Shown one piece after another: positions 1 through 58,267 of a stretch of 64,000 bases of DNA. The position numbers were made by a program, and so were the translations under genes. The notes below the pieces were generated by a model that did no database searches, was not told the DNA's origin, and saw only the letters and a list, made by a program, of their open reading frames with translations. The stretch is from a virus. The stretch lies in IMG/VR virus record IMGVR_UViG_3300022225_001767. The stretch is one strand, 5' to 3'. The stretch's first letter is position 1; each line of letters begins with the position of its first letter.

Positions 1-109
1 CGGCCACTCTTGCACCATTGAATGCACACTTACGTTTATAATCGTTTACCGCGTGAGGCTTCAAGGTTAATTGGTAGGGCTTGAACATTCACATTCGGAG
101 AACGCTATT

Positions 110-736
110 ATGAGCAACCCATTACGCCACCTTGCCACCGCCATTGTTACTGCTTGTCAAACTAAAGACAACGCAAAACACGTCAAACAGAGCACCGTCC
201 TTGATGTTCTTACTAAGCATGAAGGCTACAGAAGTATACAGGCGCGAGACAACGCAACTGCTACGCGTAACGATGACAAACCACTGCCATCGGACGTTGT
301 CGCATTGCGAGGGCTTCTTTACGCCAACTATCCACATTCTGACTTACTTCCCATAGAACTTGGTGAAGCCATCACATTTAAAGGCTCCCTCGTTTCGCAC
401 CCTGATTGGGGATGCGATGCACCCTTCGCCGTCATGTGGGATTTACTCAGTAATGAACTACATGCAGCGGTCGATGAGCTTGAGCGCTGGAACCGCTTGT
501 GCGACCGCCTTGAAGACGTTATTGAGTCTGGCACTGACGCTATAAACGAAGTGTTGATTGCTTTCCCACCACGTATTGCGCAGTTTCTTCACGCAGAGTT
601 TGATGAAGTGACCGACGACACCATGTTGCCTGTTAAACAGGCTGCGGAGAAATATCGCGCCCTAGAGCGCTTTCAATCTGATGTTGAGAGTGTCACGGAT
701 GCGCTTCGCAATGCCCGTTCGGCACAAGACAGATAA
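110..736 (+). CDS. Hypothetical protein with Glyoxalase_8-like N-terminal helical motif
   Basis: GGAG RBS before ATG 110; VKQSTVLDVLTKHEGYRSIQA. Confidence 0.75.
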   Translation: MSNPLRHLATAIVTACQTKDNAKHVKQSTVLDVLTKHEGYRSIQARDNATATRNDDKPLPSDVVALRGLLYANYPHSDLLPIELGEAITFKGSLVSHPDWGCDAPFAVMWDLLSNELHAAVDELERWNRLCDRLEDVIESGTDAINEVLIAFPPRIAQFLHAEFDEVTDDTMLPVKQAAEKYRALERFQSDVESVTDALRNARSAQDR

Positions 737-822
737 CCATCAATTTGTGGCCTGTGTTTGTTGACACAGGCTGTGTTTGTTGTTAATATAATAACCGTCA
801 ACACAACAACAGGAATGCACAC

Positions 823-1065
823 ATGAAAGTATCTCGTTTACTTGAACTCAACGAAGACCGTCGCATGAAAAAGGCGAAAACGGAAGACTTGCACGGTACG
901 GTAACGGTCTCTGATACGCTCGCTTGCTTGGACACCTATACGTTCATCAGACAAAAAGAAGAAGGCTTCTACTTGCTGAACGTTGACCCCCTCAGCGAAG
1001 AAATCACCAGCATTCTGGTTAAATCAGAGTTCCTCAGTGCAGACGTGCTGGCTATCTTTAAATAG
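823..1065 (+). CDS. Hypothetical protein
   Basis: Follows repeat 761; AGGA RBS. Confidence 0.8.
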   Translation: MKVSRLLELNEDRRMKKAKTEDLHGTVTVSDTLACLDTYTFIRQKEEGFYLLNVDPLSEEITSILVKSEFLSADVLAIFK

Positions 1066-1132
1066 CCACTTCGTTTTACGCTACAGCTAGGCGCTTCGGC
1101 GCCTTCACAGTCTCATTGATAAAGGGAACGCC

Positions 1133-1624
1133 ATGTATAAGCATGTCACCGTTACGCTCATTCGCGCATTTTTTGCCAACGTTAAATCATTAGCTGTATT
1201 GGTTAACCGAGTGCCTGTCTTAACCTCAGATCAAGTGGGGGATGACGAGGTCTTTGAGCGTTTAGCATCGACGCTGATCGCCCGGTTAAAGGAAGCCCAT
1301 AGTCATGTGGACTACGGCATCTACGACGTCATTATGAGTACGACATCAGCAGAAGTGGATTGGGTTAAAACCATCGACTACCTCACAGAGAAGAACATAC
1401 CGCCCACATCGTCTGATACCGCCATGTATGTCAAAGAAGTCACGGTCACCGATCCTGACACGCAACTTCCCGTCGACATCGTTATCTACAAAGACCGTGG
1501 TACTGACGCCATGTTTGGCGTGGACAGCGCATACATATCAAGGCTCGGAGACGATGAAGGCGTGATCAGCCCTGTTAGCGGAAAAGGTGTTATTCTCGTT
1601 GAGCCAGAAGAAACCTCTTCCTAA
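1133..1624 (+). CDS. Hypothetical protein
   Basis: AGGGA RBS; 163 aa. Confidence 0.8.
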   Translation: MYKHVTVTLIRAFFANVKSLAVLVNRVPVLTSDQVGDDEVFERLASTLIARLKEAHSHVDYGIYDVIMSTTSAEVDWVKTIDYLTEKNIPPTSSDTAMYVKEVTVTDPDTQLPVDIVIYKDRGTDAMFGVDSAYISRLGDDEGVISPVSGKGVILVEPEETSS

Positions 1625-1726
1625 CGAGCAGCGACAAGACGAACCAAGCCACCGTCAGCCTTTTTAATTAGACCATGGCGACACAGCACACACTGTGATT
1701 GCCATGACTCCTACGGAGCCTTTGTT

Positions 1727-2197
1727 ATGTATATCACGACTTACGAAACGCGACACTTTGAGTTTATTGCCGTAGGCACCACGCCTGAGAGCGCCAAGAC
1801 TGGACTGGACAGTGCCGTTCAGCGCCACGGTAAGATCTACCCTGACTGCAACGCAGAAGAACTGTTAAACGACATTAGAGATGACGGCGTTAACCTCTAC
1901 TTTATCCCCTGCGGAGAAGGCATCAATATGCTTTCTTCAGACTGCGAGACATTTAACGGCCCGCATAACAATGTCAGCGTTCCGTTAACCATTAACATCT
2001 ATAACGGCATAACGCCAACCAACCCAGCGCCAACGCAACGCTGCATCCCGCTTCATGGTGTTAGCGACATGCTGAGTCATGCGTCCCAATTACTTGCTGC
2101 ACGAAAGGCGTTACGTGAAGGGCGTATAACCGAAGCCGCATTCGATGCACTGTTCGATGAACTTGATGAGTCATTGTCGACATACTTGTCTGAATAA
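1727..2197 (+). CDS. Hypothetical protein
   Basis: GGAG RBS; 156 aa. Confidence 0.8.
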   Translation: MYITTYETRHFEFIAVGTTPESAKTGLDSAVQRHGKIYPDCNAEELLNDIRDDGVNLYFIPCGEGINMLSSDCETFNGPHNNVSVPLTINIYNGITPTNPAPTQRCIPLHGVSDMLSHASQLLAARKALREGRITEAAFDALFDELDESLSTYLSE

Positions 2198-9523: not shown

Positions 9524-9760
9524 ATGTCACCTTTGAATGCATACCTTGACCACCTCAACAAACGTCAAGCTTTCTTTAATGCTAAACCTTACACCTTACC
9601 TGACGACGCGGTGCGTGTATTGCAAACGGTGGAGTGTGATCTCAGCCCTGAAAACCTTCATGCTGACGGTGAACGTTCACGCAGTGATGTCAAAGCACGA
9701 CGCGACTTTTTAGAGCGGGTTAAGCAAGAGATTGACGACATGCTTCAAACGACAGCCTGA
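9524..9760 (+). CDS. Hypothetical protein (LSPENLHADGE)
   Basis: AGGAGG RBS. Confidence 0.8.
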   Translation: MSPLNAYLDHLNKRQAFFNAKPYTLPDDAVRVLQTVECDLSPENLHADGERSRSDVKARRDFLERVKQEIDDMLQTTA

Positions 9761-9861
9761 TTCGAGATTGTCGAACACATCAACACAAAAATGTGATACC
9801 TTCTTTATATCATTTTTATGCCACTGCTGACGGTGGCATTTTCATTTACTGAGGAATAAAT

Positions 9862-10482
9862 ATGGTTAAACTACGCACTGACAACATTAACCCAAAACAT
9901 CTTGCGCACATTGTGTGTGTTGACGCTATGCATTTTGTAAACCGCAGCGAAGATGGTTTTTGCGACTTCACGCTAGAACCAGGCGATATCATCATTGCAC
10001 GCCGCCACGAGCTTGAAAGAGATTATCGCTTCCGTCAAGTTATGCCTATGCTGGTGTTTACGCACAAGGGCAAAATCTGGGCATATCGCCGCACTGAAAA
10101 AGGCGGTGAAAAGGGGCTTCATAACAAGGTTGCTGTGGTGGTGGGCGGTCATTTTGACCTTGGCGACCTAGTGTATGATAAAAGTGTCATTGATCTTGAA
10201 AAGTCACTTGAGAACGCTACTGCGCGTGAAATTGACGAAGAGGTCTTATTGAATGGGGCCAACGTGGTGAGTCAAACCAAGTTGGACAAAGTGATCACTG
10301 CTGATGAGACCGGTGTTGATGCGAAACACGTTGCCTTGGTTACGATGATAGAGCTTGATGCCATGACGGTAGAAAGCAAAGAAGACGAGCTTGAGTCTCT
10401 CGGCTTCTTTTCGCCTGATGAACTGCTCAATGGCGACTATGCCCTCGAAACGTGGGCGACCATGATTTGCAAAATGATGTAA
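9862..10482 (+). CDS. NUDIX-family phosphoesterase (COG4112-like)
   Basis: E..Y.FRQVMP, YRR..KGGE..LH.K..V.VGGH, and Nudix-box-like REIDEE. Confidence 0.8.
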   Translation: MVKLRTDNINPKHLAHIVCVDAMHFVNRSEDGFCDFTLEPGDIIIARRHELERDYRFRQVMPMLVFTHKGKIWAYRRTEKGGEKGLHNKVAVVVGGHFDLGDLVYDKSVIDLEKSLENATAREIDEEVLLNGANVVSQTKLDKVITADETGVDAKHVALVTMIELDAMTVESKEDELESLGFFSPDELLNGDYALETWATMICKMM

Positions 10483-12038: not shown

Positions 12039-12050
12039 GGCTGTTACCTC

Positions 12051-12097
12051 GTTGTGTTGACGTAGTCAATTTTACTAAAATTAACATCATAAGTCAA
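12051..12097 (-). promoter_or_regulatory. Minus-strand copy of the promoter repeat
   Basis: TTGACT-N17-TAAAAT...GTCAACACAAC-GAGG upstream of ATG 12038. Confidence 0.85.
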
Positions 12098-12176
12098 CTT
12101 TTTTGAGGTTTTTGGTGTGAGCTATGAGGGTAAAACTCGCCCCAGAAAAAACGGGGCGAGGTATGAAATTGAGATG

Positions 12177-15478: not shown

Positions 15479-15674
15479 TTGACTCTAGTTTGTTCGTTTG
15501 ATATATTTAAGTTGCTCCGATGGAGTGTAGGCCATACGACCTACGCCGCCCCTTTGGCCAAAATCGTAAGCAACATCTTTACCTATTCACCTGTGGTACG
15601 TTACATACAACGACATAACACCTTGGGTGCGATTGGGAACGGGGCACAAGCGCACCATTAATGAGGAATACCTT
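15479..15674 (+). promoter_or_regulatory. Box-less promoter with ~160 nt structured leader
   Basis: TTGACT-N17-TATATT; GTTGCT/AGCAAC closes an inner GTAGG/CCTAC hairpin; GGTGCG/CGCACC stem just before the RBS. Confidence 0.6.
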
Positions 15675-16646
15675 ATGTCATTACGTCAACAGATCGTGTC
15701 TAAATCACACATGCAGGGGCTACGAGACTCACTGCGAGAATCATTCTCCCCGAATAAGCTTGCTGTCCTGCTATCACACACCATTAATGATCCTGCTGTC
15801 CAGGCTGCAATGAGCAAAGCCATCGGTTCAAAAGGCGAGAGCAAGCTCGACGTGCGCGTCGCCGACGACATCACAGCCACCCTGCTTGGCTTTAATAACA
15901 CCCATGAAATGTTCGCGCATTACAATAGTGTGACGCATGTTCGTCGCTGGGAGTTTTTACACAAAAACAAACACGAAGACTATGCACCCGACTATTTGGT
16001 TGAAGTTGGCGTCCACTTTTCTGTACTTGATGCCATCGCCCTAGAGGACAACGATTTCGAACATGATCGCATTGATGAACGTTTTGAGCTCCTTGCTATG
16101 GATGAGGCCTACCCTGCCAGTGATGAAGATCTCGCAACCTGCATCACGTCAAAAAGCGATGCGCCTGCGGTTGTGTTATCGATGTCAAGAGATGGCCTGT
16201 TTGATGACATTAAAATGTCAGACAGCGCAATGGCGTCACAGGCATTCACCTTGCTCGAATCAATGATTTTAACCACAAGCGCCGGCATCCCCTTTGCACT
16301 GGATAGCGACGAGGTAATGAAACGCTACACGCTCTCTGATATGGCGATATTCTCGGTTTCCCAGGATGTCGTTGATAGCGAGCTAGACCTCCTGACCGTC
16401 TTTCTTGAAGAGGGGGTGCTGGAGGGGACAATCACCGTTCCACTACCAGCCGCATTGCTACCACTCGCGCCACTTTCAATCAGAGACGGCATGCATATCT
16501 ATACGTTACTGGATGGGTACACACTGCATTTTTCTCCGGCATCGATGATGTTCATCTTGGCGCACAACGACGCACCCTGCTTTGGCGGCGGCATACACCT
16601 CCATGAGGACGACCTTCGACGTCAGGCATTTACTGGCTTGGCGTGA
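15675..16646 (+). CDS. Hypothetical protein with helix-GFNN motif
   Basis: GAGGA RBS; DDITATLLGFNNTHEM; stop codon lies in the IS right end. Confidence 0.8.
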   Translation: MSLRQQIVSKSHMQGLRDSLRESFSPNKLAVLLSHTINDPAVQAAMSKAIGSKGESKLDVRVADDITATLLGFNNTHEMFAHYNSVTHVRRWEFLHKNKHEDYAPDYLVEVGVHFSVLDAIALEDNDFEHDRIDERFELLAMDEAYPASDEDLATCITSKSDAPAVVLSMSRDGLFDDIKMSDSAMASQAFTLLESMILTTSAGIPFALDSDEVMKRYTLSDMAIFSVSQDVVDSELDLLTVFLEEGVLEGTITVPLPAALLPLAPLSIRDGMHIYTLLDGYTLHFSPASMMFILAHNDAPCFGGGIHLHEDDLRRQAFTGLA

Positions 16647-18037
16647 ACTACCCAGCGACATCGCTTCGCTCTGATCACTGGGCTTCTACAGTCTAGCTTT
16701 GAAGCTAGGCCGCTTCTTTTTTCTCAGATCCAACAGCAAACTTCGATAGCTCGAAGGCTTTCGCTTTACTAGCTGATTTCTGCTGAGATATGGGGATTAC
16801 CCTTGCGACGATCCCAGCCGCAATTAAGTCTGTCTCACCTGTTTTTGCTATGCTTTTAGCCGCTGAGAAGTCGCGGTTTTGATACGTTCCGCAAGCAGTA
16901 CAGGTGAAATATCTATCGCTCAATGTTAAAACATGGCGTTGGCCGCATTCTGAACAAATCCCTGTGGATTTTTCAAAGCGACCAATTTCGTGATAGAGCT
17001 TACCTTCCAACTCAGCCTTGTATTTCGAGAGCTGGGTAATTAAGCCCATCACATTGTCAGCCACCATACTGCCGTTGAACTTTTGCATCGCTTTCACATT
17101 CAAATCCTCAAACACCAGAATATCAGTTTCATTGGCTATCTGTCGTGACACTTGATGTGCAAAGTCGAGTCTTTGCCGTGAGATTTTGCCGTGAAGCTTA
17201 TTGATGCGTTGCTTGGTCTTTTGCCAGCGATTAGACCCTTTCTTTCGCCTTGCAAGCTGGCGTTGCAAGTGGCTTAATTTCTCTTTTGATTGTTTTAAGA
17301 ACTTCGGGTTGTTGGCAGTAAAGCCATTTGAGCCCACTACCGTTTGCTTAGAGTTAATATCAAAACCTGTGATGCTTTCCAGTAGTTTTTTAGCGGCTTT
17401 ACATTCCACTTCTTGCGTAATGCTGCATTCCCATTTTCCATGACGATACTGGACAGTAACGGTCTTAATTTGGCTCACTAAGTCGCGGTGTAAGATGATG
17501 GGTATTTTACCCACTTTTGGGATGCTAATAGAGTCATTTTCAATGCGTATGCAATTGGAATTGTTCACCGCTCGAAAGCTGTCATTGTGAAGCTTCTTTC
17601 GCTTATAAGAGACTTTATGTTTTGGAAAACGTTGCAACCGACCTTTTGAAAAGGCGTTTTTTAGTGCTGTTTCCAGATCTCTTGCGACTTGCTGGGCTGC
17701 TGCTGAGTCAAACGCCTTTACCCAAGCAAACTCATCAAAAGACTTTAGTTCTTTGAGCAATGAAGCCATATCCCTGTAAAACAAGAACGTCTTATCGTAC
17801 TCGTATCGACGCATTGTTTCAGACAACAGCAGGTTCCAAATGCCACGGGCTGTTGCACCAAACTCAATGAGTCTAGCCTCCTGCTCCAGCGTTGGCTTAA
17901 GCCTGTAATTGTATCTGAGCGTCTTTTTCATATACTGTATAGATTACTGTATATAGTAGAGCTGTCAACCTGAATTTACCGATTCATCCCCGCGACATCA
18001 CTTCGTTCTGATCACGGGGTTTTCTCGGCAACATTAG
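16643..18037 (-). mobile_element. IS200/IS605-family element, tnpB only (non-autonomous)
   Basis: Related subterminal hairpins at ~16651-16683 and ~17988-18019; right end ...GTAGTTCAC; TTTAT next to the inferred left end; no tnpA. Confidence 0.8.
16705..17931 (-). CDS. tnpB: RNA-guided endonuclease TnpB
   Basis: N-terminal YRLKPT.EQ; RuvC GFDIN / FEDL / NRD; Zn finger CSEC..CTAC. Confidence 0.95.
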   Translation of the reverse strand: MKKTLRYNYRLKPTLEQEARLIEFGATARGIWNLLLSETMRRYEYDKTFLFYRDMASLLKELKSFDEFAWVKAFDSAAAQQVARDLETALKNAFSKGRLQRFPKHKVSYKRKKLHNDSFRAVNNSNCIRIENDSISIPKVGKIPIILHRDLVSQIKTVTVQYRHGKWECSITQEVECKAAKKLLESITGFDINSKQTVVGSNGFTANNPKFLKQSKEKLSHLQRQLARRKKGSNRWQKTKQRINKLHGKISRQRLDFAHQVSRQIANETDILVFEDLNVKAMQKFNGSMVADNVMGLITQLSKYKAELEGKLYHEIGRFEKSTGICSECGQRHVLTLSDRYFTCTACGTYQNRDFSAAKSIAKTGETDLIAAGIVARVIPISQQKSASKAKAFELSKFAVGSEKKEAA

Positions 18038-18866: not shown

Positions 18867-19358
18867 ATGATTTCAACCCTAACCAAAGCTGAATGCATCG
18901 ACGCGCTATCTCACTTTGATCGCGATGACATTGTTGTAGCAACATGCACGTTCGGTGACCGCGCTAGAACGATGCAGGCAGTACCACTGGGCGACCTTAC
19001 ATCTGGCTTTATCACCTCATCGAGCTACTCAGACTCTGGGTATGCCGTGGTTGAGGAGGGCGATGAAGATGACAGCGACACCCCTATTCACTTCTTCGAA
19101 CCGGGCGACGTCTCTGAACATATGACGGTAGGCGACTTTCTCGATAACCTAACGGGACTTGATGATGACGACCTTGTTGTCGCTGCGTGGAACTACGGAG
19201 ACCGCGGAAATACGATTCAGGCGATTGGTTTTAATGAGGTTAATGAGGTTTATCTTAACCGCAGCCCATCCTCGGACTCTGGCTACGCCGTAGTTGAGGA
19301 GGGGGATGAGGATGATGACGCAGTGCGCGCGCTGGTCATCAACTACGAGGCCCTTTAA
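18867..19358 (+). CDS. Very acidic protein with internal duplication
   Basis: After repeat 18807; GDR..T.QA...SDSGYAVVEEGDEDD occurs twice. Confidence 0.85.
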   Translation: MISTLTKAECIDALSHFDRDDIVVATCTFGDRARTMQAVPLGDLTSGFITSSSYSDSGYAVVEEGDEDDSDTPIHFFEPGDVSEHMTVGDFLDNLTGLDDDDLVVAAWNYGDRGNTIQAIGFNEVNEVYLNRSPSSDSGYAVVEEGDEDDDAVRALVINYEAL

Positions 19359-19430
19359 GTAACACTATGCGGGTGGCGATTTGCCACCCCTATCAAGACC
19401 TAACACAATCATCGTTCAACAGGAGCTATC

Positions 19431-19799
19431 ATGTCTCACGCATCAACGAACAATAAACAAAAAACAAACCGTGTTAACGTGGGGAAACTGTGGACAGCGC
19501 TGCGAGATAAACTGAATGCGCAATCGTCGCTATTGGCGATGAAGCTTGATGATGTGCTCAAAATGGAACAAAAACTTAATGCTGAAAACGGGGTCTGCGG
19601 CAGTGAGTACATCGCCAAAACCTCCCTGCTCTATCATATTGCGAGCCAGCCGTTAGGTAACATGAACTATAAGTTAGTAGGTCAGATGCGAGATAGCCTT
19701 ATCATTGTGCTTACACTCGTCTTAGCCACTAACCCTGAGAGCGATTACTTATCCGAATACGAAGGTGCCTTGGCAACCATTCTAATGAATCAAGGATAA
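19431..19799 (+). CDS. Hypothetical protein
   Basis: AGGAG RBS; lies just upstream of the candidate antisense RNA. Confidence 0.8.
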   Translation: MSHASTNNKQKTNRVNVGKLWTALRDKLNAQSSLLAMKLDDVLKMEQKLNAENGVCGSEYIAKTSLLYHIASQPLGNMNYKLVGQMRDSLIIVLTLVLATNPESDYLSEYEGALATILMNQG

Positions 19800-20095: not shown

Positions 20096-20281
20096 ATGTC
20101 AGAAAAGAAAATTCAATTAGTTCGCGAGGTCGCGAGCGAAGCAGGCAAGCTTAAACGTAAAATCATCAATGCGCTTGATGAGTCTAACCCAAAATCGTAC
20201 GAAGTGTCTCAGGCAGTCTCACAGCTTATGGCTGATCTTAATGAGCTTGTGCAAAGCGCCCCTGTATCCGACAACGGTTAA
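20096..20281 (+). CDS. Small helical hypothetical protein
   Basis: After repeat 20036. Confidence 0.75.
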   Translation: MSEKKIQLVREVASEAGKLKRKIINALDESNPKSYEVSQAVSQLMADLNELVQSAPVSDNG

Positions 20282-20332
20282 CTGCGCCTGTGCGCCCATT
20301 GTGGCGCACACCCATGTAAAGGAATTCATAAC

Positions 20333-20923
20333 ATGAATAACGCTGTTCCACTATCTGAAGAATACCTTGATGCGCTACGCTCTGGCATCAATGGCAAAAG
20401 CACTGCGTTTGTTTCGTTGTTACTGGTCGCGTTTGACGAGCTGTGCGATGCAGAAACCCTTGAGGCGAATATCGCCGCCATACTTGAAGCCAATGCGGGT
20501 GGTGCCGCGGATGTTAATGCCGTTATCCCCATGGCGGTTCAGTTCCGCACCTGCGCTCGCTCATTTGCTGCCCTACCACCTGAGTACAGTCAGGCTGAGC
20601 TAGAGGACGCGAATGCGTTACTTAAAACCCTGGGTTACACTATTGATTTAGTCACGATATACGCCAACGTCATAAGCCGCATTCATTTTGCTAAAGAGGG
20701 CGTGGTGCTACGCGACTTAGTCAACAACGGTGACACGCCAGAGGATTTGATTGCGCCTTACCCTGACGAAGCCCCTGAAGGCAAGGTGAGAGAAACGTGG
20801 CTGGCACGGGTCAAAGAAGTGGGTCGCGACGACATTGTGGCATGGCATGACGATGTGATGGCTCGCCATGATGATGGGGATGCGATCATTACCATGATAC
20901 TGACGCAATCAGAATGGGAATGA
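20333..20923 (+). CDS. Hypothetical protein
   Basis: AAGGA RBS. Confidence 0.8.
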   Translation: MNNAVPLSEEYLDALRSGINGKSTAFVSLLLVAFDELCDAETLEANIAAILEANAGGAADVNAVIPMAVQFRTCARSFAALPPEYSQAELEDANALLKTLGYTIDLVTIYANVISRIHFAKEGVVLRDLVNNGDTPEDLIAPYPDEAPEGKVRETWLARVKEVGRDDIVAWHDDVMARHDDGDAIITMILTQSEWE

Positions 20924-25512: not shown

Positions 25513-25524
25513 TATGTAAACCCT

Positions 25525-34976: not shown

Positions 34977-35002
34977 ACACCAAGACGTTTATTGCATGTA
35001 CT

Positions 35003-35030
35003 AAAAAAGCGCCTCATTTGGCGCTTTTTT
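35003..35030. terminator. Bidirectional intrinsic terminator
   Basis: A6-GCGCC-TCATTT-GGCGC-T6. Confidence 0.85.
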
Positions 35031-35051
35031 GATTTGTGACCCTTATCGGCA

Positions 35052-35432
35052 TTAGCACAGCAGGTCGACAACAACGGCCAATCGCCGCTTCTGTTCATTT
35101 AATGCTTCCGCAAGAGTAACCAGTTCATCGTCGGCATCCGCCATTTGAGCCAGCATTACGATGCGCTTTGTGTGCTCTGCAATACTATGCGACAATTCCG
35201 ACTTCATTGTTTCGAGGTCGGCCTTTGATGGTGTAGACGCATTAACCTTTGAAGTGAGCGCCTGCATATCAACACCTTTTAACGTTCTGCCGATATGAAT
35301 GTTACCCGACAGTGGGTTTAAGGCATTGCTAAAATAGAAACCATGCTTATTCTTTCTGAGCGTTAAATGCATGGCTTTTTCTTTTGTGATAAGCGCACTT
35401 AAATGCACTTGTGTTACCGTGACTTCAGACAT
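35052..35432 (-). CDS. Hypothetical protein
   Basis: AAGGAG RBS. Confidence 0.8.
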   Translation of the reverse strand: MSEVTVTQVHLSALITKEKAMHLTLRKNKHGFYFSNALNPLSGNIHIGRTLKGVDMQALTSKVNASTPSKADLETMKSELSHSIAEHTKRIVMLAQMADADDELVTLAEALNEQKRRLAVVVDLLC

Positions 35433-35507
35433 TGCTTTTCTCCTTGGTGGTGAAGTTAAATTATACCACCATATGACCTATTTTCCAATTGCTTTTGCCC
35501 TTCTTAT

Positions 35508-36122
35508 TTAGCGCGACGTTAATACGTCATACTCTAAACTGTTCCTCACAATACTGCCCATGATCTCAGCAACATCAACCAGGCCTTGCTGCTCAAGTGT
35601 CACCAGGGCTTCTTTTAACAAGGGGTGGTTGGCCAGCTCTCGCGCATCATCACTTAACGCCTCTGCGGTAGACTCGTGCGCGTCAGCGGGCACATCGCTC
35701 ATATCATCCACTTGCTGTGCGTCCAATATGTTTGATGACACTTGTGATTTCCACATATTTATTTTTTGCTCGCATGCTTTCAATGCATCATTTGGCGCAT
35801 CTTCATCGCTATGCTTCTGTTGAAATACATGCGCTTTAGGGGGGAGGGCGGCCAGCACGTCTGACGCCCTAACCTCGTGTGTATCGTCAAGTAACGCCCC
35901 CGCTTTCGCTTGGATTTTTAGCCAGTTGTACAGGCCATCAATAGCCGCAGAGGGAGCAATCACCGGTGCCGGTGTTAATTGATTGGTTAGTATCGCAATA
36001 TCAGCACAGTTTTGCCCTTTTGCGATGGCGCTTCGCAGTCGCGTGGCGGGCATCTTCGTGTGCTGCGCAGTGTCTTTTGAAAATTGGTCGAGTGAATGTT
36101 TGCTATCAATAATAATAAACAC
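35508..36122 (-). CDS. Hypothetical protein of the structured-leader class
   Basis: GAGGA RBS, GTG start; RLRSAIAKGQNCADI. Confidence 0.75.
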   Translation of the reverse strand: MFIIIDSKHSLDQFSKDTAQHTKMPATRLRSAIAKGQNCADIAILTNQLTPAPVIAPSAAIDGLYNWLKIQAKAGALLDDTHEVRASDVLAALPPKAHVFQQKHSDEDAPNDALKACEQKINMWKSQVSSNILDAQQVDDMSDVPADAHESTAEALSDDARELANHPLLKEALVTLEQQGLVDVAEIMGSIVRNSLEYDVLTSR

Positions 36123-36370
36123 AATAATATCCTCTTTGTCGTCGGTATAAGGTGATGAGTTCGGCCATTGCCCAACAACCGACTAAAAAGTCATATTGTG
36201 GTTGATGCAAATAGTGGTTGATGCAGTTTACCTTACTCAGGCAGACCATAAGACAGGTCGGCGAGTGGCCGTAGAGGGATGCCGTCCCAAGCACCGGCTT
36301 ATCAGATGCATAACATGCAAATGGGCAGCGCTATGGTGAAAATAATATCAACATCAACCTGTGCTGTCAA
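36123..36370 (-). promoter_or_regulatory. Box-less promoter with ~215 nt structured leader
   Basis: TTGACA-N17-TATTAT; GTCGGT/ACCGAC stem just before the RBS. Confidence 0.6.
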
Positions 36371-36377
36371 CATAAAG

Positions 36378-36408
36378 CAAAAGGGCTGCAAGCGCAGCCC
36401 TTTTTTTG
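36378..36408. terminator. Intrinsic terminator
   Basis: AAAAGGGCTGC-AAGC-GCAGCCC-T7. Confidence 0.8.
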
Positions 36409-36416
36409 ATCACCCA

Positions 36417-37187
36417 CTAACTCGAAAGCGTAACTAAAAAACATCCTTCTGGAATATCATCACGTGGTACCACAGCAAGGCCTGATGTCGTTTGGATGTC
36501 ATGAAAACAAGCCAAAAACCCAGTCTTATTACGCAGCGTTTCCATAACATCTTCGCTGCTTCCATCGAAACCAACAGGGACATGAATGGCGACGACAGAG
36601 TAAACGCCCTGAATGCGGTCGATCACATGCTCTTCAAATTGGTCAATAGCGCCGATGTTTACTTTATCTGCACCCATAAGTGTGGTTGAACTTGCATCTG
36701 GCATCACCCACTCTTCATTGGTGTTTTCATTAATATAAAGCGTAAAGCGCTTCGTATCACTCGTTTCAATAATATCTTGCATGGCGTATTCTGCCATGCA
36801 GTGAACGGTTACATCACCCAATAAACTCTGCTTGAATTGCTGTTCGCCATTCGGGAAGCCGATAAGTTTTAAGGTAATATCGCGGAGGCGGTCTCGCCCT
36901 TTACTTTTATCCGTATTTATCGTGATATCGAGTGTGTCAGCAAGGATGCGCTTGACGTGCTCCTCAGTGACACAAAGTGACGCTTCGTCTTTTACCTCTG
37001 CCATAGGGTTGTTGACATAAGTGTTAACTTCACCTTTTACGACAGGGTACGCCAAGCATGAGCAAAGGGGGCATTCGCAGGTTGTGAAAGACTGACCGCT
37101 ATCGAAGCGCTCACTTGCACGTCTTACAGCATTAAATTCGCTTTCATTTTGCGTAAAGTTACAGTTATCGCAGCGATAATACATCAT
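36417..37187 (-). CDS. Zn-ribbon plus helix-GFPN protein
   Basis: Start moved to MMYYRCDNC after GAGGA; CDNC..CPLC; DITLKLIGFPNG. Confidence 0.75.
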   Translation of the reverse strand: MMYYRCDNCNFTQNESEFNAVRRASERFDSGQSFTTCECPLCSCLAYPVVKGEVNTYVNNPMAEVKDEASLCVTEEHVKRILADTLDITINTDKSKGRDRLRDITLKLIGFPNGEQQFKQSLLGDVTVHCMAEYAMQDIIETSDTKRFTLYINENTNEEWVMPDASSTTLMGADKVNIGAIDQFEEHVIDRIQGVYSVVAIHVPVGFDGSSEDVMETLRNKTGFLACFHDIQTTSGLAVVPRDDIPEGCFLVTLSS

Positions 37188-37421
37188 CGTATTCCTCATA
37201 GTATGACAGGTTGCGTCTACGTTCCTCAACTTGTCACGTATCGTGAACAAGTATGATGTTTTTTGCGTCATCGTAAATGGATGTTTGCGTTGCGTTATCA
37301 GCACTGCGTTATGCAGTTGTAGACGAGCCAAGGCCGCCGCCTCACATACACCACCATCAACCAATTGGTGTGGCGTCATACGTGTTAAGCCTATTATCCA
37401 TAAATCTTGGAGTGTTGTCAA
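37188..37421 (-). promoter_or_regulatory. Box-less promoter with ~200 nt structured leader
   Basis: TTGACA-N17-GATAAT; GTGACAAGTTG/CAACCTGTCAT stem before the RBS. Confidence 0.6.
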
Positions 37422-37517
37422 TGGGTTTATTTTTAATAAGGTTTTCTTTTTATGCTTGACAACGCACTCAGAGTTTGAGATACTACATCTGTCAACACAA
37501 CAACTCAGGACGCCATT

Positions 37518-37991
37518 ATGACGACCCCAACATCTACCATTGCACCGTTTGTTATTCCTGCGAACATTATCGCATCACTGCCAGATTACAGTGATGTCAG
37601 TGACACACTGCCATCCATGCAGAGCGAGCTACTTAACGCTGATGCGAATTTAAAGCTTGATGCTGATGCCGCAATGACCATTGCTATGAAAATGGGCGAT
37701 GAAGCTAAAGGTCTACTTGATTGGACGCTGCTTGGGGCGTGCGGGTGGACGTTGAGCACGTTAGATGCGAAAGCTAAGAGTCGTTTCGTCGACTGGACTG
37801 AAGTTATGATAGACGCTATCACCAGCGACGACCAATGCCCGCTTAAAGAGACCGGCAAGGTTATTCTTCATTGGTCTGAAGCGGCACCTGCATCACGTGC
37901 AGCAGTAGATGCGTTTTACGTAGCGCTAATGGGGAAACCATTGACGACGCTGTTCAACGAAATTAACGCTGAAATCAGCAACGCACACTAA
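37518..37991 (+). CDS. Hypothetical protein
   Basis: After repeat 37456; two similar G(W/K).L.TL helices. Confidence 0.85.
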   Translation: MTTPTSTIAPFVIPANIIASLPDYSDVSDTLPSMQSELLNADANLKLDADAAMTIAMKMGDEAKGLLDWTLLGACGWTLSTLDAKAKSRFVDWTEVMIDAITSDDQCPLKETGKVILHWSEAAPASRAAVDAFYVALMGKPLTTLFNEINAEISNAH

Positions 37992-38044
37992 TAACGAGTG
38001 GTGCAAGGTGCGATGGCGCCTTGCATCAACGAGGACGATTTGTC

Positions 38045-38482
38045 ATGAAAATGAAGCTTATTACTTACACCCGAAAGACGACCATTGAGAATCTTAATAC
38101 GCTCATCAAAAAAGGCCGCTACACCTTTCCGGCTGATGTGGCAGACATCAAGGACTTGTCGCTGATTGCTACCGCCGCCGTCGAGATGATTGCATCTAGC
38201 ATCGATCTTCCTCCGGCATTGGCTATTGAGGACGACAATGGTTATTTTCACTTCATCGCTAATTACCAGACACTTTACGCGTTAACAGCGTTCCTCAACG
38301 GCAATATCACGCTCACTGAAAGCGTTATCGATGACAGTGTCAGTAATATGAAAGCTGATGAACTTGATTTACATCTTTATGAGCGCATTGTCGACAAGTA
38401 CTTCACTGTATCTTCATGTCTTGGTAAAAACCTTGTGGAGCCTGAAGTAGAAGAGCTTGTCCGCCGTTACAATTTACTTTAA
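38045..38482 (+). CDS. Degenerate DUF262/GmrS-like (ParB/Srx fold) protein
   Basis: IDLPPALAIEDDNGYFHFIANYQTLYALTAF resembles the P.P...DG...IDGQQRL region. Confidence 0.5.
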   Translation: MKMKLITYTRKTTIENLNTLIKKGRYTFPADVADIKDLSLIATAAVEMIASSIDLPPALAIEDDNGYFHFIANYQTLYALTAFLNGNITLTESVIDDSVSNMKADELDLHLYERIVDKYFTVSSCLGKNLVEPEVEELVRRYNLL

Positions 38483-38558
38483 ATCACGGAAGGGCGAGAT
38501 ATCATTTTCGCCTTTCCTTCACTACAAATTAACCCCCCACCACCACGAAGGGAAGAGT

Positions 38559-40048: not shown

Positions 40049-40118
40049 GTCGCCTTATTACCGGCTCTTGGTATTGTCTGCAACACAGGCAGCAACCGCT
40101 TTAATGCTAATTTTTATA

Positions 40119-40170
40119 CCTTGGTGATGTGCTGACACACTCACCCCAGCCCGCCATGCGCGGGCTTTTT
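40119..40170 (+). ncRNA. Hairpin plus terminator module carrying anti-leader sequence, copy 1
   Basis: GGTGA-TGTG-CTGA-CACA-C-TCACC, then GCCCGC..GCGGGC-T5; TGTGCTGACA is the reverse complement of TGTCAGCACA. Confidence 0.55.
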
Positions 40171-40926: not shown

Positions 40927-40995
40927 CATACCTTTCACTCATTCACATTGCGCCCATTGCTTGACGCGTGGGCACAACCGCACTGGAGCATCATT

Positions 40996-41289
40996 ATGCA
41001 ACTTTTTGGCATCCACACAACAGAATTTGAAAACAATGACTTTATGCTACTTAATTATGCAGCGTTATGCACGACACAACGTGACATTGTTTTTATTACC
41101 AGTAACGAAATAGACGCTCAAGAGCCTACTGGTGATATTGTAGGTGAATCTGTTGATGTTGAGTTCAATAATCAGTGTTTTTCGTTCGAGTGTGACCAAG
41201 GTTCGCTCACACAGCAAGGGCAAGCTGACTTTGACAATTTTCTCAACAGCACGCTATTTCCTGCTATCAAAAATGGAGCCCCCCTCTAA
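40996..41289 (+). CDS. Acidic hypothetical protein
   Basis: GGAG RBS. Confidence 0.7.
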   Translation: MQLFGIHTTEFENNDFMLLNYAALCTTQRDIVFITSNEIDAQEPTGDIVGESVDVEFNNQCFSFECDQGSLTQQGQADFDNFLNSTLFPAIKNGAPL

Positions 41290-41906: not shown

Positions 41907-42170
41907 ATGCAAACCACTCAGTCTTACCTGCTTTTCCCGGTTAAGCCCAGCTACCCTATTGACGAGGACGGCACAGAAGGCACCTTGGAAGAACACTTGG
42001 CATATGTCGATAATGGCGGTACACCAGACATGTGGGACAGCGTAGAAACTGAGAACATCATGGATGTATTCAAACAAGTTCGCTACTCAGGCCTTCACCT
42101 TATCATCGTACGCAACGATGGTGATCCTGAAGTTGTCGGGGAATTTGACCCGTCAGAATATTCAGATTAA
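41907..42170 (+). CDS. Acidic hypothetical protein
   Basis: After repeat 41847. Confidence 0.8.
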   Translation: MQTTQSYLLFPVKPSYPIDEDGTEGTLEEHLAYVDNGGTPDMWDSVETENIMDVFKQVRYSGLHLIIVRNDGDPEVVGEFDPSEYSD

Positions 42171-42222
42171 CGTTATTAACCACGGCTGCAATAGCGGCCG
42201 TGGGAGCTACCAGTGAGGCAAC

Positions 42223-42447
42223 ATGAAACCGACTCTTATTGCACTGTGCATTTTGCTACTTTGCGCGATAACCGCGTCATCGGGCTGCACGCTTCAACGC
42301 CAGGTCGTGGCGAGCGCCTCTCTTGCCGATGAAGCAACAATGGATCACGTTACTGCGGCATTCCTTCGCGACACAGCCACGGTGACATTGACGACCCCTC
42401 AGGGGCGTGTCATACGCACATCACGTGCGAGGCAGTACTACTTTTAA
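42223..42447 (+). CDS. Small exported or lipoprotein-like protein
   Basis: GAGG RBS; hydrophobic N-terminus, SSGC. Confidence 0.65.
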   Translation: MKPTLIALCILLLCAITASSGCTLQRQVVASASLADEATMDHVTAAFLRDTATVTLTTPQGRVIRTSRARQYYF

Positions 42448-42448
42448 A

Positions 42449-42504
42449 CCTTGGTGATGTGCTGACACGCTCACCACCAGCCCGCCACTGGCGGGCTTTC
42501 TTTT
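42449..42504 (+). ncRNA. Hairpin plus terminator module, copy 2
   Basis: CCTTGGTGATGTGCTGACACGCTCACC..GCCCGCCACTGGCGGGC-TTTCTTTT. Confidence 0.55.
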
Positions 42505-52183: not shown

Positions 52184-52190
52184 CCTCTTT

Positions 52191-52244
52191 TTGGTGCTGT
52201 GCTGACATACACACCCTGCCCGCCACGCGCGGGCTTTTCTCTTT
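52191..52244 (+). ncRNA. Hairpin plus terminator module, copy 3
   Basis: TTGGTGCTGTGCTGACATACACACC..GCCCGCCACGCGCGGGC-TTTT. Confidence 0.55.
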
Positions 52245-55918: not shown

Positions 55919-55953
55919 ACCACAACAACACTTTTCGTCACTAGGGAAACAGC

Positions 55954-56547: not shown

Positions 56548-56622
56548 TTACGGCACACTATTGACAACCCTCTCATATCTGTGAGAGGATTATTTTCGTC
56601 AACACAACAACGAGAATGCATT

Positions 56623-57186
56623 ATGAACAGCACTACAACACAGCACAACAGCCAGCCTAATGTTTTTGAAATTGGTTATTGCAGCAATGTATCTGAAGCT
56701 ATTTCAGTTGCCATCTGCGTACCTTTAAGTACATATGATTTCTCAACGTTTGATACGGTGTCTCAAGCGCTTGAACAGATCGCTATAATGACGAAAAAGC
56801 GACTTGATAACGCCCCAGCATTAGTTGAAAGCTACGGCAATGAACTTACCTCTCGCATCAACAGTATGAAAATGAACGTTACTGATGAGGTGTACGACGC
56901 ACTTTCGCCCCTTGCTCGCAGTGCAGACAACCTGACCATTGAGGTTGTCAATAACCGTGAAGGCCACGTGCCGCTTAATAAGTTAAGCATCTATGGCGCA
57001 CGTACGCTCATTAACCTTTTTGTTTACACCTACATCGATACGTTGATGGAGATGGTCAAGAAGTATGATGTTGAAAGCGCGCTTGATGATATGCTACAAA
57101 ACGACCCCGCTAAATTCTGGATGACACTTGATGATTTGCTGACGAGTTGCGCAGGCTACCCTGATTTTGACATGACGCGTATCTAA
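56623..57186 (+). CDS. Hypothetical protein, paralog family with 42586 and 49301
   Basis: After repeat 56561; YGARTLINLFVYTYIDT. Confidence 0.85.
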   Translation: MNSTTTQHNSQPNVFEIGYCSNVSEAISVAICVPLSTYDFSTFDTVSQALEQIAIMTKKRLDNAPALVESYGNELTSRINSMKMNVTDEVYDALSPLARSADNLTIEVVNNREGHVPLNKLSIYGARTLINLFVYTYIDTLMEMVKKYDVESALDDMLQNDPAKFWMTLDDLLTSCAGYPDFDMTRI

Positions 57187-57201
57187 CACGCTTTAGTTTC
57201 A

Positions 57202-57254
57202 CCTTGGTGATGTGCTGACACACTCACCCAAGCCCGCCATGCGCGGGCTTTTTT
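57202..57254 (+). ncRNA. Hairpin plus terminator module, copy 4
   Basis: CCTTGGTGATGTGCTGACACACTCACC..GCCCGCCATGCGCGGGC-T6. Confidence 0.55.
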
Positions 57255-57267
57255 GACTCTTTTTTGG

Positions 57268-57487
57268 TTGACTTTATCGCTTTAGTTGGTATAATTAACT
57301 TCAATATTTAGGTGATTCGGCCTAGATGTTACCAAGCGTATAACGGCGCGGATTGCTTCACCCTCCAGGCGACTGGCACGGCATCACGTTAACACACAAT
57401 CTACAGTATGTTTCTTTGCAGCATTATTCACAATGGCCGCACAGGACAACGGGTGAACTCTTATGTATCGGTCAATTGAGGATAATT
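57268..57487 (+). promoter_or_regulatory. Box-less promoter with ~185 nt structured leader
   Basis: TTGACT-N16-TATAAT with TG extension; AATATTTAGG/CCTAGATGTT stem. Confidence 0.6.
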
Positions 57488-58267
57488 ATGTCAACGCTAC
57501 AACAAAAACTTCGCACGCTTATCAGCCAACACAGCGATGGCCCTCGCGCCTTTGCTTCTTTGCTTTCCGCATCGCATAATGCCTTCTTTGGAACACCACT
57601 TAACGAGTCTAAATCCAAGGCATTTGGTGCAGTGATAGCAGGCGTTAAAAACGCCCACGTGTTCTCATCCCTCACCAACACCGAGTCAGCAGTAACACGC
57701 ACCACATCTTCGCTTATTAGTATCTGCTCGCGCACCCACGACCACCTCTATGGCGAAGGATATTTCGACTTTTACTACCCTGTTTTCACTTGCGATGAGA
57801 CGTCGAACTCTGTGGGGATATTTACAACGGCCCATATGGATGATGATGAGTTGTGCGTCAGAGTGACCCAATCCATTAAAGCGTTTGATGATCAAATAGG
57901 TGAGTTTGTTGAATGCGTGCTAGCACCTTGCGGCGCAACCTGTAGCATGAAGCTTATTAGTACAAATGGCGGCAACTCCCGTCTAATTTTCCGTATTGAT
58001 TACCTTAACGAAGATGCGCAGCAACGCTTGCAGGAAGCCACGCAGCCCGACATCGTCAAAACCGCCGAGTTATGTGCGCGCGCTAAACAAGAGCCTAAGC
58101 GATGTAATGTGAGTTATGCATCCACATCCGCTCTCAGGGCGATGCAGACGCTGGAACTTTCTCGCATTATTGAGGCTATTGGTGCCATACCGCATCCTGA
58201 CTTTACCACACATCAAAGCCACCTCGCTTTGTTTGATGGTTACGTTCCTTACAAGGCATTGGCGTAA
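57488..58267 (+). CDS. Hypothetical protein of the structured-leader class
   Basis: GAGGA RBS; KAFGAVIAGVKNAH. Confidence 0.75.
   Translation: MSTLQQKLRTLISQHSDGPRAFASLLSASHNAFFGTPLNESKSKAFGAVIAGVKNAHVFSSLTNTESAVTRTTSSLISICSRTHDHLYGEGYFDFYYPVFTCDETSNSVGIFTTAHMDDDELCVRVTQSIKAFDDQIGEFVECVLAPCGATCSMKLISTNGGNSRLIFRIDYLNEDAQQRLQEATQPDIVKTAELCARAKQEPKRCNVSYASTSALRAMQTLELSRIIEAIGAIPHPDFTTHQSHLALFDGYVPYKALA

What the first reader, a model, noticed from the sequence alone, without database searches (positions are those of the whole stretch)
1..58267. Second regulatory class: five genes with box-less promoters, long structured leaders and a shared helix-G(F/Y)xN motif
Seen: genes at 15675(+), 36122(-), 37187(-) and 57488(+) have TTGACW-N16/17-(T/G)ATNNT promoters without the GTCAAC box. 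A 160-215 nt hairpin-rich leader follows, ending in GAGGA, mostly with a stem just before it. Gene 110(+) has the same pre-RBS stem (TTCAAG/CTTGAA), and its leader shares CGGCCACTC with the 36122 leader; its promoter lies outside the window. The proteins share a loose motif: TKHEGYRS, ATLLGFNN, LKLIGFPN, AVIAGVKN and, weakest, IAKGQNCA. This recalls the Glyoxalase_8-type N-terminal helical domain, here fused to unrelated domains. Inference: RNA-protein pairs, either autoregulatory leaders or RNA antitoxin-like partners.
Basis: partly seen in the sequence, partly recalled or inferred. Interest (0 to 1): 0.7.

Follow-up and report, generated by a model that had tools for sequence, protein, structure and literature searches.

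The report
Five long-leader genes lacking the tag
In a large uncultured marine plasmid-like element where most genes start with the same short RNA tag, five orphan genes instead have ordinary promoters and unusually long, non-coding leaders that tend to hide the ribosome-binding site, but the claimed shared protein domain and RNA-protein partnership are only weakly supported.

Summary
The anatomy is real. Four genes in the window (starts 15675+, 36122-, 37187-, 57488+) have strong sigma-70-type promoters without the GTCA(A/G)CAC box. Their untranslated leaders are 161-213 nt, against a median of 25 nt for 55 box-bearing genes. A relative (L007) shows the same layout for gene 110. The leaders are non-coding by codon usage and match no Rfam family.

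The "structured, related leaders" claim is mostly unsupported. Whole-leader folding is no better than shuffles, the leaders do not align with each other, and the shared CGGCCACTC is at chance level. Substitutions in close relatives do not avoid predicted pairs. Two local features are modestly enriched: a hairpin at the 5' end and masking of the ribosome-binding site (combined P about 0.005-0.007 each).

The protein motif is strict only in g15675 and g37187. Profile comparison gives P=0.004 for g57488, P=0.04 for g37187, and nothing for g110 or g36122. A language-model search gives lead-level PF20066 (Glyoxalase_8) hits for g110 and g15675.

Best reading: terminator-insulated accessory genes outside the tag regulon, with translational-control leaders. 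An RNA-antitoxin reading has no support. This scan has described a leader RNA tied to PF20066 genes on other DNA; I could not test membership.

The parts
1..109 (+). 3' part (109 nt) of the g110 leader; its promoter lies upstream of the window
   Evidence: In L007 the homologous leader is 197 nt and follows a terminator and TTGACA-N17-TATTAT. A helix pairing UAUAAUCGUU with AACGCUAUUAUG covers the start codon and shows one compensatory change, U-A to C-G. RBS pairing probability is 0.84 against 0.55 for shuffled upstream sequence.
110..736 (+). g110 CDS, 208 aa, orphan
   Evidence: No Pfam, PHROG, NCBIfam or PADLOC hit. An 88% identical homolog lies in L007. ESM features of residues 1-60 are nearest to PF20066-bearing clusters at 0.85 and 0.84, a lead only.
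15479..15507 (+). box-less sigma-70 promoter TTGACT-N17-TATATT with TG, directly after a terminator-like hairpin
15514..15674 (+). g15675 leader, 161 nt, non-coding
   Evidence: All three frames give codon scores of -0.13 to -0.17 and contain stops. MFE z-score is -0.07. Identity to L025 is 97%. No Rfam hit falls inside the leader.
15675..16646 (+). g15675 CDS, 323 aa; founding member here of a family of at least 38 clusters
   Evidence: N-terminal consensus is AD.L.A..LGF.N.HEMFAHY. The AF2 model has pLDDT 89.6 and matches no solved or viral fold clearly.
36342..36370 (-). box-less promoter TTGACA-N17-TATTAT with TG, preceded by terminator 36379-36404
   Evidence: Hexamers are conserved and the spacer has diverged in L009.
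36123..36335 (-). g36122 leader, 213 nt, non-coding
   Evidence: The two-sequence consensus fold pairs CACAAUA..CUUUUU with the SD and the GUG start, with one compensatory change, G-C to A-U.
35508..36122 (-). g36122 CDS, 204 aa, GTG start, orphan; followed by gene 35052-35432(-), which has its own short-leader box-less promoter
37393..37421 (-). box-less promoter TTGACA-N17-GATAAT, divergent from the class-1 promoter at 37456
   Evidence: RNA-library contigs from two studies end at 37363-37377, which is a weak hint of a transcript 5' end.
37188..37386 (-). g37187 leader, 199 nt; open in frame with the gene but not coding-like
   Evidence: The in-frame codon score is -0.04, against 0.27 +/- 0.12 for genes. 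A gene caller extended the protein to 320 aa (P0010). The first 45 nt form a stable hairpin of -18.2 kcal/mol (P=0.009).
36417..37187 (-). g37187 CDS, 256 aa: N-terminal CxxC...CxC..CxxC zinc-ribbon-like motif, then ITLKLIGFPN; hypervariable between strains
   Evidence: The body of the gene is 60-83% identical to L009, while the flanks are 99-100% identical.
57268..57295 (+). box-less promoter TTGACT-N16-TATAAT with TG, after terminator 57230-57250, which belongs to the D14 repeat
57302..57487 (+). g57488 leader, 186 nt, non-coding
   Evidence: About 96% identical in L026 up to TTGAG of the SD, where a TnpB insertion sequence begins.
57488..58267 (+). g57488 CDS, 259 aa, orphan; possible remote relative of the g15675 family's N-terminal half
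   Evidence: hhalign P=0.004 over 58 columns. Only close homologs were found.

Best explanation
These are five independently transcribed accessory genes that sit outside the element's main regulon, the GUCA(A/G)CAC tag regulon.

Shown directly by the sequence: each unit is insulated by an upstream terminator (four of five) and driven by a near-consensus host-type sigma-70 promoter. Each makes an mRNA with a 160-215-nt non-coding 5' UTR ending in a strong GAGGA Shine-Dalgarno.

Inferred: the leader is a cis-acting post-transcriptional control region. A hairpin at the extreme 5' end would protect the mRNA. Upstream segments pair with the SD and start codon, so translation is low by default and needs a trans-acting factor or condition to open. 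That factor may be the gene's own product, a small RNA of the element, or a physical signal.

The encoded proteins belong to different orphan families. Two to four of them may share a short helix-turn-helix-like motif (hydrophobic helix, G-F/Y-x-N/S turn, helix). If real, that motif could be the nucleic-acid-binding part that closes an autoregulatory loop.
For: Promoters: only four intergenic box-less matches exist in 64 kb, scoring 10-11 of 12. The fifth is seen in L007. The g36122 hexamers are conserved while the spacer has diverged in L009.

Leader length: 161-213 nt, against a median of 25 nt (12-44) for 55 tagged genes.

Non-coding: codon-usage scores are -0.04 to -0.83 in all frames, against 0.27 +/- 0.12 for genes.

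RBS masking against shuffled upstream sequence: P<0.007, 0.08, 0.08, 0.2 and 0.66; Fisher about 0.007 by my calculation.

5' hairpin: the first 45 nt fold better than random 45-nt windows of the same DNA, Fisher P=0.005.

Covariation: one compensatory pair each in the g110 and g36122 leaders, both in helices that cover or flank the start region.

Transcript end: RNA-library contigs from two studies stop at 37363-37377, next to the predicted g37187 start site, and cover leader and CDS together.

Motif: the strict form occurs in 2 of 127 ORFs, both long-leader genes. The loose form occurs in 4 of 5 long-leader genes against 14 of 122 others (hypergeometric P about 0.001 by my calculation, post hoc). 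hhalign gives P=0.004 and 0.04. ESM features give PF20066-bearing clusters in the top 3 for two different proteins. The N-domain of the AF2 model aligns with TetR, AraC and sigma-4 HTH domains at Z about 4.
Against: Whole-leader MFE is not better than shuffles, with z from -0.07 to -1.6.

An unbiased test on single-sequence MFE structures shows no depletion of natural substitutions in paired positions. It also shows no excess stability of natural variants over random mutants.

The high leader identity to relatives (89-99%) is explained by mosaic recombination blocks, not by selection. The apparent 'leader kept, gene swapped' case in L026 is an IS insertion.

The leaders share no sequence or obvious common fold and match no Rfam family even at E<=10.

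The two positive local tests were chosen after several negative ones, so their P values are optimistic.

Motif support is post hoc. HMMER does not link the families. g36122 lacks the motif, and g110 is not aligned at the motif by hhalign. The structural Z scores of about 4 are within noise for helical domains.

A sixth box-less promoter has a short leader.
Confidence: 0.45

Rival explanations
1. Unrelated accessory genes ('morons') picked up with their own host-type promoters and terminators. The long leaders have no shared function. The protein motif is a chance match or a generic helix-turn-helix signature picked by eye.
For: Leaders are not alignable and have ordinary global folding energy. 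Available substitutions show no structure conservation. The proteins are unrelated by BLAST and HMMER. The loose motif occurs in 18 of 127 proteins. The region is mosaic and hypervariable, with IS traffic.
Against: Five of five stand-alone promoters with leaders in a narrow 161-213-nt band, in a tightly packed element whose other leaders are 12-44 nt, is hard to get by chance. RBS masking and 5' hairpins are enriched. The motif is enriched in exactly these genes, with hhalign P=0.004 and 0.04.
Confidence: 0.3
2. Members of an uncatalogued pseudoknotted leader RNA family that accompanies genes with the PF20066 (Glyoxalase_8) N-terminal three-helix domain. Other reports of this scan describe this family on other DNA. 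The protein would bind its own leader and limit its own translation.
For: ESM-feature searches for g110 (residues 1-60) and g15675 (residues 1-100) both return PF20066-bearing clusters in the top three, one cluster in common. The motif regions align by hhalign. Long leaders occur only at these genes. RBS masking is present. Earlier scan notes are leads only, not evidence.
Against: HMMER finds no PF20066 match at E<=10, and none of the 40 g15675-family members hits it. Atlas scores of 0.81-0.85 lie in the range that a third of shuffled proteins reach. The five leaders share no detectable sequence or fold with each other. I could not obtain a reference leader to compare. In g37187 the motif is at residue 100, not at the N-terminus.
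Confidence: 0.15
3. Type III toxin-antitoxin-like pairs, in which the leader RNA is processed into an antitoxin that neutralises the encoded protein.
For: Only the layout of promoter, long non-coding RNA and gene, and the location on a mobile element.
Against: There are no tandem repeats in the leaders. No terminator lies between leader and gene. No PADLOC, Pfam or NCBIfam toxin family is hit. The proteins differ from one another. The leader runs straight into a strong SD.
Confidence: 0.03
4. The 'leaders' are partly coding: N-terminal extensions (as in the database call of a 320-aa g37187 protein) or small upstream ORFs.
For: The g37187 leader is open in frame for 66 codons from an ATG about 10 nt after the predicted start site. 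A gene caller used that ATG (P0010).
Against: Codon-usage scores of all leader frames are far below those of genes. Every other leader frame carries 1-7 stops. Strong GAGGA sites sit before the downstream starts. Of the three substitutions seen in that leader, two would be non-synonymous.
Confidence: 0.05

Closest known systems
Long translational-control 5' UTRs that mask the RBS, such as the E. coli rpoS leader and ribosomal-protein autoregulatory leaders (my own knowledge, not checked in a paper here)
   Same: A long non-coding leader in which upstream segments pair with the SD and start codon. Translation is presumably opened or closed by a trans-acting RNA or protein.
   Different: There is no sequence or Rfam match. 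The effector is unknown. Five different leaders sit before five different orphan genes on one mobile element. Evidence for structure is statistical and weak.
5'-terminal stem-loop mRNA stabilisers such as the ompA 5' UTR (my own knowledge)
   Same: A stable hairpin lies within the first 45 nt of a long 5' UTR.
   Different: Neither the transcript 5' end nor mRNA half-life has been mapped here.
PF20066 (Glyoxalase_8) N-terminal helical domain proteins, and the uncatalogued leader RNA that earlier reports of this scan place before them
   Same: A short helix, G-F/Y-x-N/S turn, helix motif, with lead-level ESM similarity. A leader of about 150-200 nt sits in front of the gene.
   Different: HMMER gives no match to PF20066. 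The leaders are not shown to share that RNA's fold. Motif position varies from residue 40 to residue 110.
Type III toxin-antitoxin loci (ToxIN and relatives)
   Same: A promoter, then non-coding RNA, then a protein gene, on a mobile element.
   Different: No repeat array, no internal terminator, and no toxin family hit.
Phage and plasmid morons
   Same: A single accessory gene with its own promoter and terminator, inserted among genes of another regulatory class. It is variable between strains.
   Different: The consistently long leaders are not a feature of morons as usually described.

Membership tests
PF20066 Glyoxalase_8 (N-terminal helical domain) | Match to the Pfam HMM at or above its cut-off (23.7 bits) | tested here: not met
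   PF20066 is not hit at E<=10 for the five motif-bearing segments. It is not hit at E<=0.1 for the whole proteins, and none of the 40 g15675-family members hits it.
PF20066 Glyoxalase_8 (N-terminal helical domain) | Remote similarity by profile or embedding methods | tested here: inconclusive
   ESM features: g110 residues 1-60 score 0.85 and 0.84, and g15675 residues 1-100 score 0.81, to clusters in which 29% of members carry PF20066. The tool calls scores under 0.9 a lead only.
Uncatalogued PF20066-associated pseudoknotted leader RNA (earlier scan reports) | Match to that family's consensus fold or covariance model | not testable with these tools
   No reference sequences could be fetched. 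There is no G000, and PF20066 is absent from K-12 and the 14 control genomes. My accession guesses failed.
   hhalign against the g15675 family: g57488 P=0.004, g37187 P=0.04; g110 and g36122 are not aligned at the motif. BLAST E values are about 1 or worse.
One common leader RNA family for the five leaders | Alignable sequence or shared consensus structure | tested here: not met
   MAFFT mean identity is 45% with no conserved block. Pairwise local alignments lie within the shuffle range, apart from an RBS 11-mer.
Rfam cis-regulatory or sRNA families | cmscan match | tested here: not met
   None at gathering score. None inside a leader at E<=10.
Type III toxin-antitoxin | Tandem repeat array of antitoxin RNA | tested here: not met
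   Tandem Repeats Finder (TRF) finds none across 36000-37500, which covers the g36122 and g37187 leaders. The other three leaders were not run through it.
Type III toxin-antitoxin | Terminator between the RNA and the toxin gene | tested here: not met
   No terminator-like site lies inside any leader.
RBS-masking translational leader (functional class) | SD and start codon paired more than expected | tested here: inconclusive
   Pairing probability is 0.60-0.84. Against shuffled upstream sequence, P<0.007, 0.08, 0.08, 0.2 and 0.66.
RBS-masking translational leader (functional class) | Structure kept by covariation | tested here: inconclusive
   One compensatory pair each in two leaders. The unbiased substitution test is negative but has low power, with only 2-13 substitutions per leader.

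The most novel reading that the evidence does not exclude
The five units are divergent copies of one RNA-protein module. In it, a pseudoknotted leader of about 200 nt is recognised by a small PF20066-like three-helix domain carried by the protein it precedes. This gives each accessory gene a private autoregulatory translational switch. The module has been reused in front of unrelated effector domains across a giant marine plasmid-like element, and, according to other reports of this scan, across distant bacteria.
Probability: 0.12. Interest if true: 0.75.

Novelty: new member of a known kind. Interest (0 to 1): 0.35.

Why it matters
The element appears to run most of its genes through one shared 5' tag. 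Knowing which genes escape that control, and how they are controlled instead, is needed to understand its gene-expression programme. If the long leaders prove to be protein-operated switches tied to a small helical domain, they would be a new, portable RNA-protein regulatory module on mobile DNA. If they do not, they are simply long 5' UTRs of strain-variable orphan genes. Separately, the g15675 family (at least 38 clusters, confident model, no known fold) is a well-defined target for structural and functional work.

Tried and rejected
1. Identifying the element. There was no match in INPHARED phages by megablast, blastn or tblastn. The promoter pattern was absent from IMG/VR and the GTDB representatives. 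No whole genome is held.

DNA around the distant g15675 homologs (P0009 at 49% and 30 or more further clusters) therefore could not be fetched.

3. The search for related loci with A5 failed because the alignment was too diverse. With A8 it found no relative in the GTDB genomes or IMG/VR. The 290-kb metagenome record behind L013 could not be searched.

4. The first AF2 run, on 4 sequences, gave pLDDT 37 and was unusable.

5. 'Leader conserved more than CDS' as evidence of selection was rejected. The window/L009 identity profile is a recombination mosaic, and the g37187 leader lies in a block of about 100% identity.

6. 'Leader is a separate module because L026 keeps it but changes the gene' was rejected. 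The downstream sequence is the left end of a TnpB insertion sequence, 90% identical to window 62606-62826.

7. Tag or anti-tag sequences in the leaders: only two 7-of-8 matches. Not pursued.

8. RNA-library contigs cover the whole 20-kb stretch on long contigs, so they cannot show leader-specific RNAs, strand or level.

9. No further long-leader units were found in the 42 related loci. HMMER found no paralog of the g15675 family in them.

10. Attempts to get PF20066 reference loci failed: two plasmid accessions recalled from memory were not in the collection, and K-12 plus 14 control genomes had none.

11. A literature search for Glyoxalase_8 or PF20066 found no paper.

Full report
CONTEXT. 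The window holds about 120 small, mostly plus-strand orphan genes. About 45 of them are preceded by a nearly identical promoter, TTGACAAC..TGAGATACT-N6-GTCA(A/G)CACAAC. It has no match in the phage collection. The promoter pattern is absent from IMG/VR and from the GTDB representative genomes, and no whole genome is held. The same pattern pulled 42 related metagenome stretches, mostly Tara-type marine contigs and a 290-kb contig. At least 20 public runs from 14 studies hold the 34000-38500 stretch almost word for word. Other markers are two TnpB genes, a PcfJ-like gene and a GmrSD_C/HNH gene. Earlier notes of this scan call it a large uncultured marine plasmid-like element whose mRNAs share a 5' tag. 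I used those notes for context only.

THE OBSERVATION. A regex for TTGAC[AT]-N16-18-NATNNT without a GTCA[AG]C box within 25 nt finds four intergenic sites: 15479(+), 57268(+), 37421(-) and 36370(-). The consensus scanner scores them 10-11 of 12, three with an extended -10 TG. Three follow an intrinsic-terminator-like hairpin directly. The distance from predicted start site to start codon is 161, 186, 199 and 213 nt, and each start follows GAGGA. The promoter of gene 110 is outside the window. In relative L007 (88% protein identity) the gene is preceded by a terminator, TTGACA-N17-TATTAT, no box, and a 197-nt leader. By contrast, 55 boxed genes have 12-44 nt (median 25) between the box and the start codon. 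About 50 further genes lack a box but sit in operons behind short gaps, often with a small hairpin and no promoter. Even differently built promoters on the minus strand (PcfJ gene at 25512, gene at 12038) carry the box. So a small, distinct class of stand-alone, box-less, long-leader transcription units is real. It is not exclusive: gene 35432(-) has a box-less promoter with a 28-nt leader. The promoters look selected: in L009 the g36122 promoter keeps both hexamers and the spacing while about half of the spacer differs.

ARE THE LEADERS NON-CODING? A database gene call extends g37187 by 64 codons into its leader (P0010), and that frame is open. I built a codon-usage log-odds score from the window's other genes. 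It gives 0.27 +/- 0.12 for 60-codon pieces of real genes and -0.53 +/- 0.27 off frame. All leader frames score between -0.04 and -0.83, and all but that one frame contain stops. The five CDSs score 0.18-0.27. The leaders are therefore non-coding.

ARE THEY STRUCTURED OR RELATED?
- Whole-leader MFE z-scores are -0.07, -0.77, -1.6, -0.53 and -1.33, which is not beyond shuffles.
- The leaders do not align. Pairwise local alignment scores lie within shuffles. The exception is the 11-mer ATGAGGAATAC at the RBS of g15675 and g37187 (P=0.03, uncorrected). The CGGCCACTC shared by g110 and g36122 is at chance level (P=0.27).
- No Rfam family matches at gathering score or inside a leader at E<=10.

Close relatives exist for all five: L007, L025, L009 and L026. 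Leader identity is 89-99% against 74-97% for the CDSs. This does not show selection, because the window/L009 identity profile is a mosaic of 100% blocks and 60-83% patches, and the g37187 leader lies in a 100% block. In L026 the g57488 leader is kept at about 96% and the sequence then changes abruptly. That downstream sequence is the left end of a TnpB insertion sequence, 90% identical to window 62606-62826. It is inserted after TTGAG, inside the SD.

Two-sequence consensus folds show no broken pairs and one compensatory pair each in g110 and g36122, but that method avoids broken pairs by construction. In an unbiased test I took the MFE structure from the window sequence alone and compared natural substitutions with random substitutions of the same kinds. 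Natural changes are not depleted in paired positions, and natural variants are not more stable. Power is low, with only 2-13 substitutions per leader.

Two local features are enriched:
- The 17 nt spanning the SD and start codon have pairing probabilities of 0.60-0.84. When only the upstream leader is shuffled, these are exceeded with P<0.007, 0.66, 0.08, 0.2 and 0.08 (Fisher about 0.007 by my calculation).
- The first 45 nt fold better than random 45-nt windows of the same DNA, with P=0.32, 0.045, 0.21, 0.009 and 0.13 (Fisher 0.005).

These tests followed several negative ones, so the evidence is moderate at best.

RNA EVIDENCE. All four RNA libraries were available only as assembled contigs. 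They cover the whole 20-kb stretch, so they cannot show ends, strand or level. Contigs from two studies stop at 37363-37377, next to the predicted g37187 start site (37386), with no loose end reported at those places. They span leader and CDS together. The tool itself rates this as a weak hint.

THE PROTEINS. None of the five hits Pfam, PHROGs, NCBIfam or PADLOC. They are unrelated by BLAST; the best cross-hit is g15675 against g37187 at the motif, with E about 1.

g15675 belongs to a family of 38 clusters at 50% identity, mostly 280-350 aa. Its most conserved part is AD.L.A..LGF.N.HEMFAHY. No family member hits PF20066, and neither Pfam nor the PDB gives any meaningful match. With the 40-sequence alignment, AlphaFold gives a confident model (pLDDT 89.6, pTM 0.78). 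The motif forms helix 60-70, turn 71-75 and helix 76-85. Fold searches give nothing convincing:
- Foldseek PDB E>=0.075.
- BFVD E>=0.026.
- VIA-align best Z 5.4. The N-terminal 85 residues align to TetR, AraC and sigma-4 HTH domains at Z about 4, which is within noise for helical domains.

The motif itself:
- The strict form [LIVMA]{2}G[FY].N occurs in 2 of 127 ORFs, g15675 and g37187.
- The loose form G[FYV].[NS] occurs in 18 of 127, including 4 of the 5 long-leader genes. The hypergeometric P is about 0.001 by my calculation, but the motif was defined on these proteins.
- hhalign of the g15675 family against the g57488 family gives P=0.004 over 58 columns, which include the motif and the following strand region. 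Against the g37187 family it gives P=0.04 over 18 columns.
- g110 and g36122 do not align at the motif.
- PF20066 is not hit by HMMER at E<=10.
- ESM-feature searches return clusters in which 29% of members carry PF20066. They are ranks 1-2 for g110 residues 1-60 (0.85, 0.84) and rank 3 for g15675 residues 1-100 (0.81), with one cluster in common. By the tool's calibration these are leads only.

So a shared helix-turn-helix-like element is plausible for two to four of the proteins and unsupported for g36122.

MECHANISM. Shown:
- separate promoters;
- terminator insulation;
- long non-coding leaders;
- strong SD.

Inferred, with moderate support: the leader masks the RBS and carries a 5' hairpin, so these genes are controlled after transcription, independently of the tag system.

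Inferred, with weak support: the proteins' helical motif binds nucleic acid and closes an autoregulatory loop.

The type III antitoxin reading lacks its defining features: no repeat array where tested, no internal terminator, and no toxin family hit.

RELATION TO EARLIER SCAN REPORTS. Notes from other genomes describe an uncatalogued pseudoknotted leader RNA before PF20066-domain genes. Two other first-stage notes list similar units elsewhere on this element. These are unchecked leads. I could not obtain reference sequences to test membership, and my own comparison of the five leaders finds no common sequence or fold.

VERDICT. The anatomical observation holds. The structural, motif and RNA-protein claims are at best weakly supported. 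This is most likely a set of strain-variable accessory genes with translational-control leaders: a new instance of a known kind, with a modest chance of belonging to a more interesting RNA-protein module.

Noticed in passing
window 62606-64000 (+); L026 1-205; window 16705-17931 (-): Two TnpB (IS605 OrfB-type) elements. The left end CGCATGCAGGGCGCATCC... follows TTGAG both at window 62606 and in L026. In L026 the element has inserted inside the Shine-Dalgarno (TTGAG|GA) of the g57488 homolog, so presence of the IS varies between strains and TTGAG is the likely target.
   Followed up: partly
window 40118-40170, 42448-42500, 52188-52240, 57201-57253: Four copies of a repeat of about 53 nt. It carries GTGCTGAC, the complement of the GTCAGCAC tag, followed by a GC-rich terminator hairpin. 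The copies sit at the 3' ends of genes and are candidate 3'-UTR-derived anti-tag RNAs.
   Followed up: no
window 36359-37158 versus L009: A hypervariable patch. The body and 3' end of g37187 and the g36122 promoter spacer are 60-83% identical between strains, while flanking DNA is 99-100% identical over kilobases. This suggests diversifying selection or allele exchange at g37187. A second such patch lies at 40959-41258.
   Followed up: partly
window 15675-16646 (P0002; alignment A5; model mf510c951a80b): The g15675 family has at least 38 clusters at 50% identity. I found no relatives in the GTDB representative genomes or IMG/VR, and the homologs whose sources were listed come from metagenome collections. 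The three-domain AlphaFold model is confident (pLDDT 89.6) but has no convincing match in the PDB or BFVD.
   Followed up: partly
window 34125-34976 (+): A GmrSD_C/HNH-type nuclease gene lies directly beside the minus-strand island that holds g36122 and g37187.
   Followed up: no
window 1065-1133, 1624-1727, 9760-9862, 19358-19431, 20281-20333, 27405-27461, 42170-42223: Many box-less genes inside operons are separated by 50-100-nt gaps that each hold one short GC-rich hairpin and no promoter. These may be RNA processing or stabilising elements.
   Followed up: no
window 25520-25590 (-) and 12040-12100 (-): Minus-strand genes with promoters built differently from the common class still carry GTCAACAC just before the RBS. 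One is the PcfJ gene (TTGATT-N17-GATATAAT); the other is the gene at 12038. The box therefore travels independently of the promoter hexamers.
   Followed up: no
P0050 (homolog of g57488) and runs X1-X20: A homolog 87% identical to g57488 is recorded on a 382,542-bp contig. The 34000-38500 stretch is held nearly word for word by runs from 14 studies of marine samples. The element is therefore very large and widespread.
   Followed up: no
P0012: A 217-aa database protein joins a DNA polymerase III alpha-like N-terminus to the C-terminal 70 residues of g37187. It sits on a 923-nt contig and is probably an assembly chimera.
   Followed up: no
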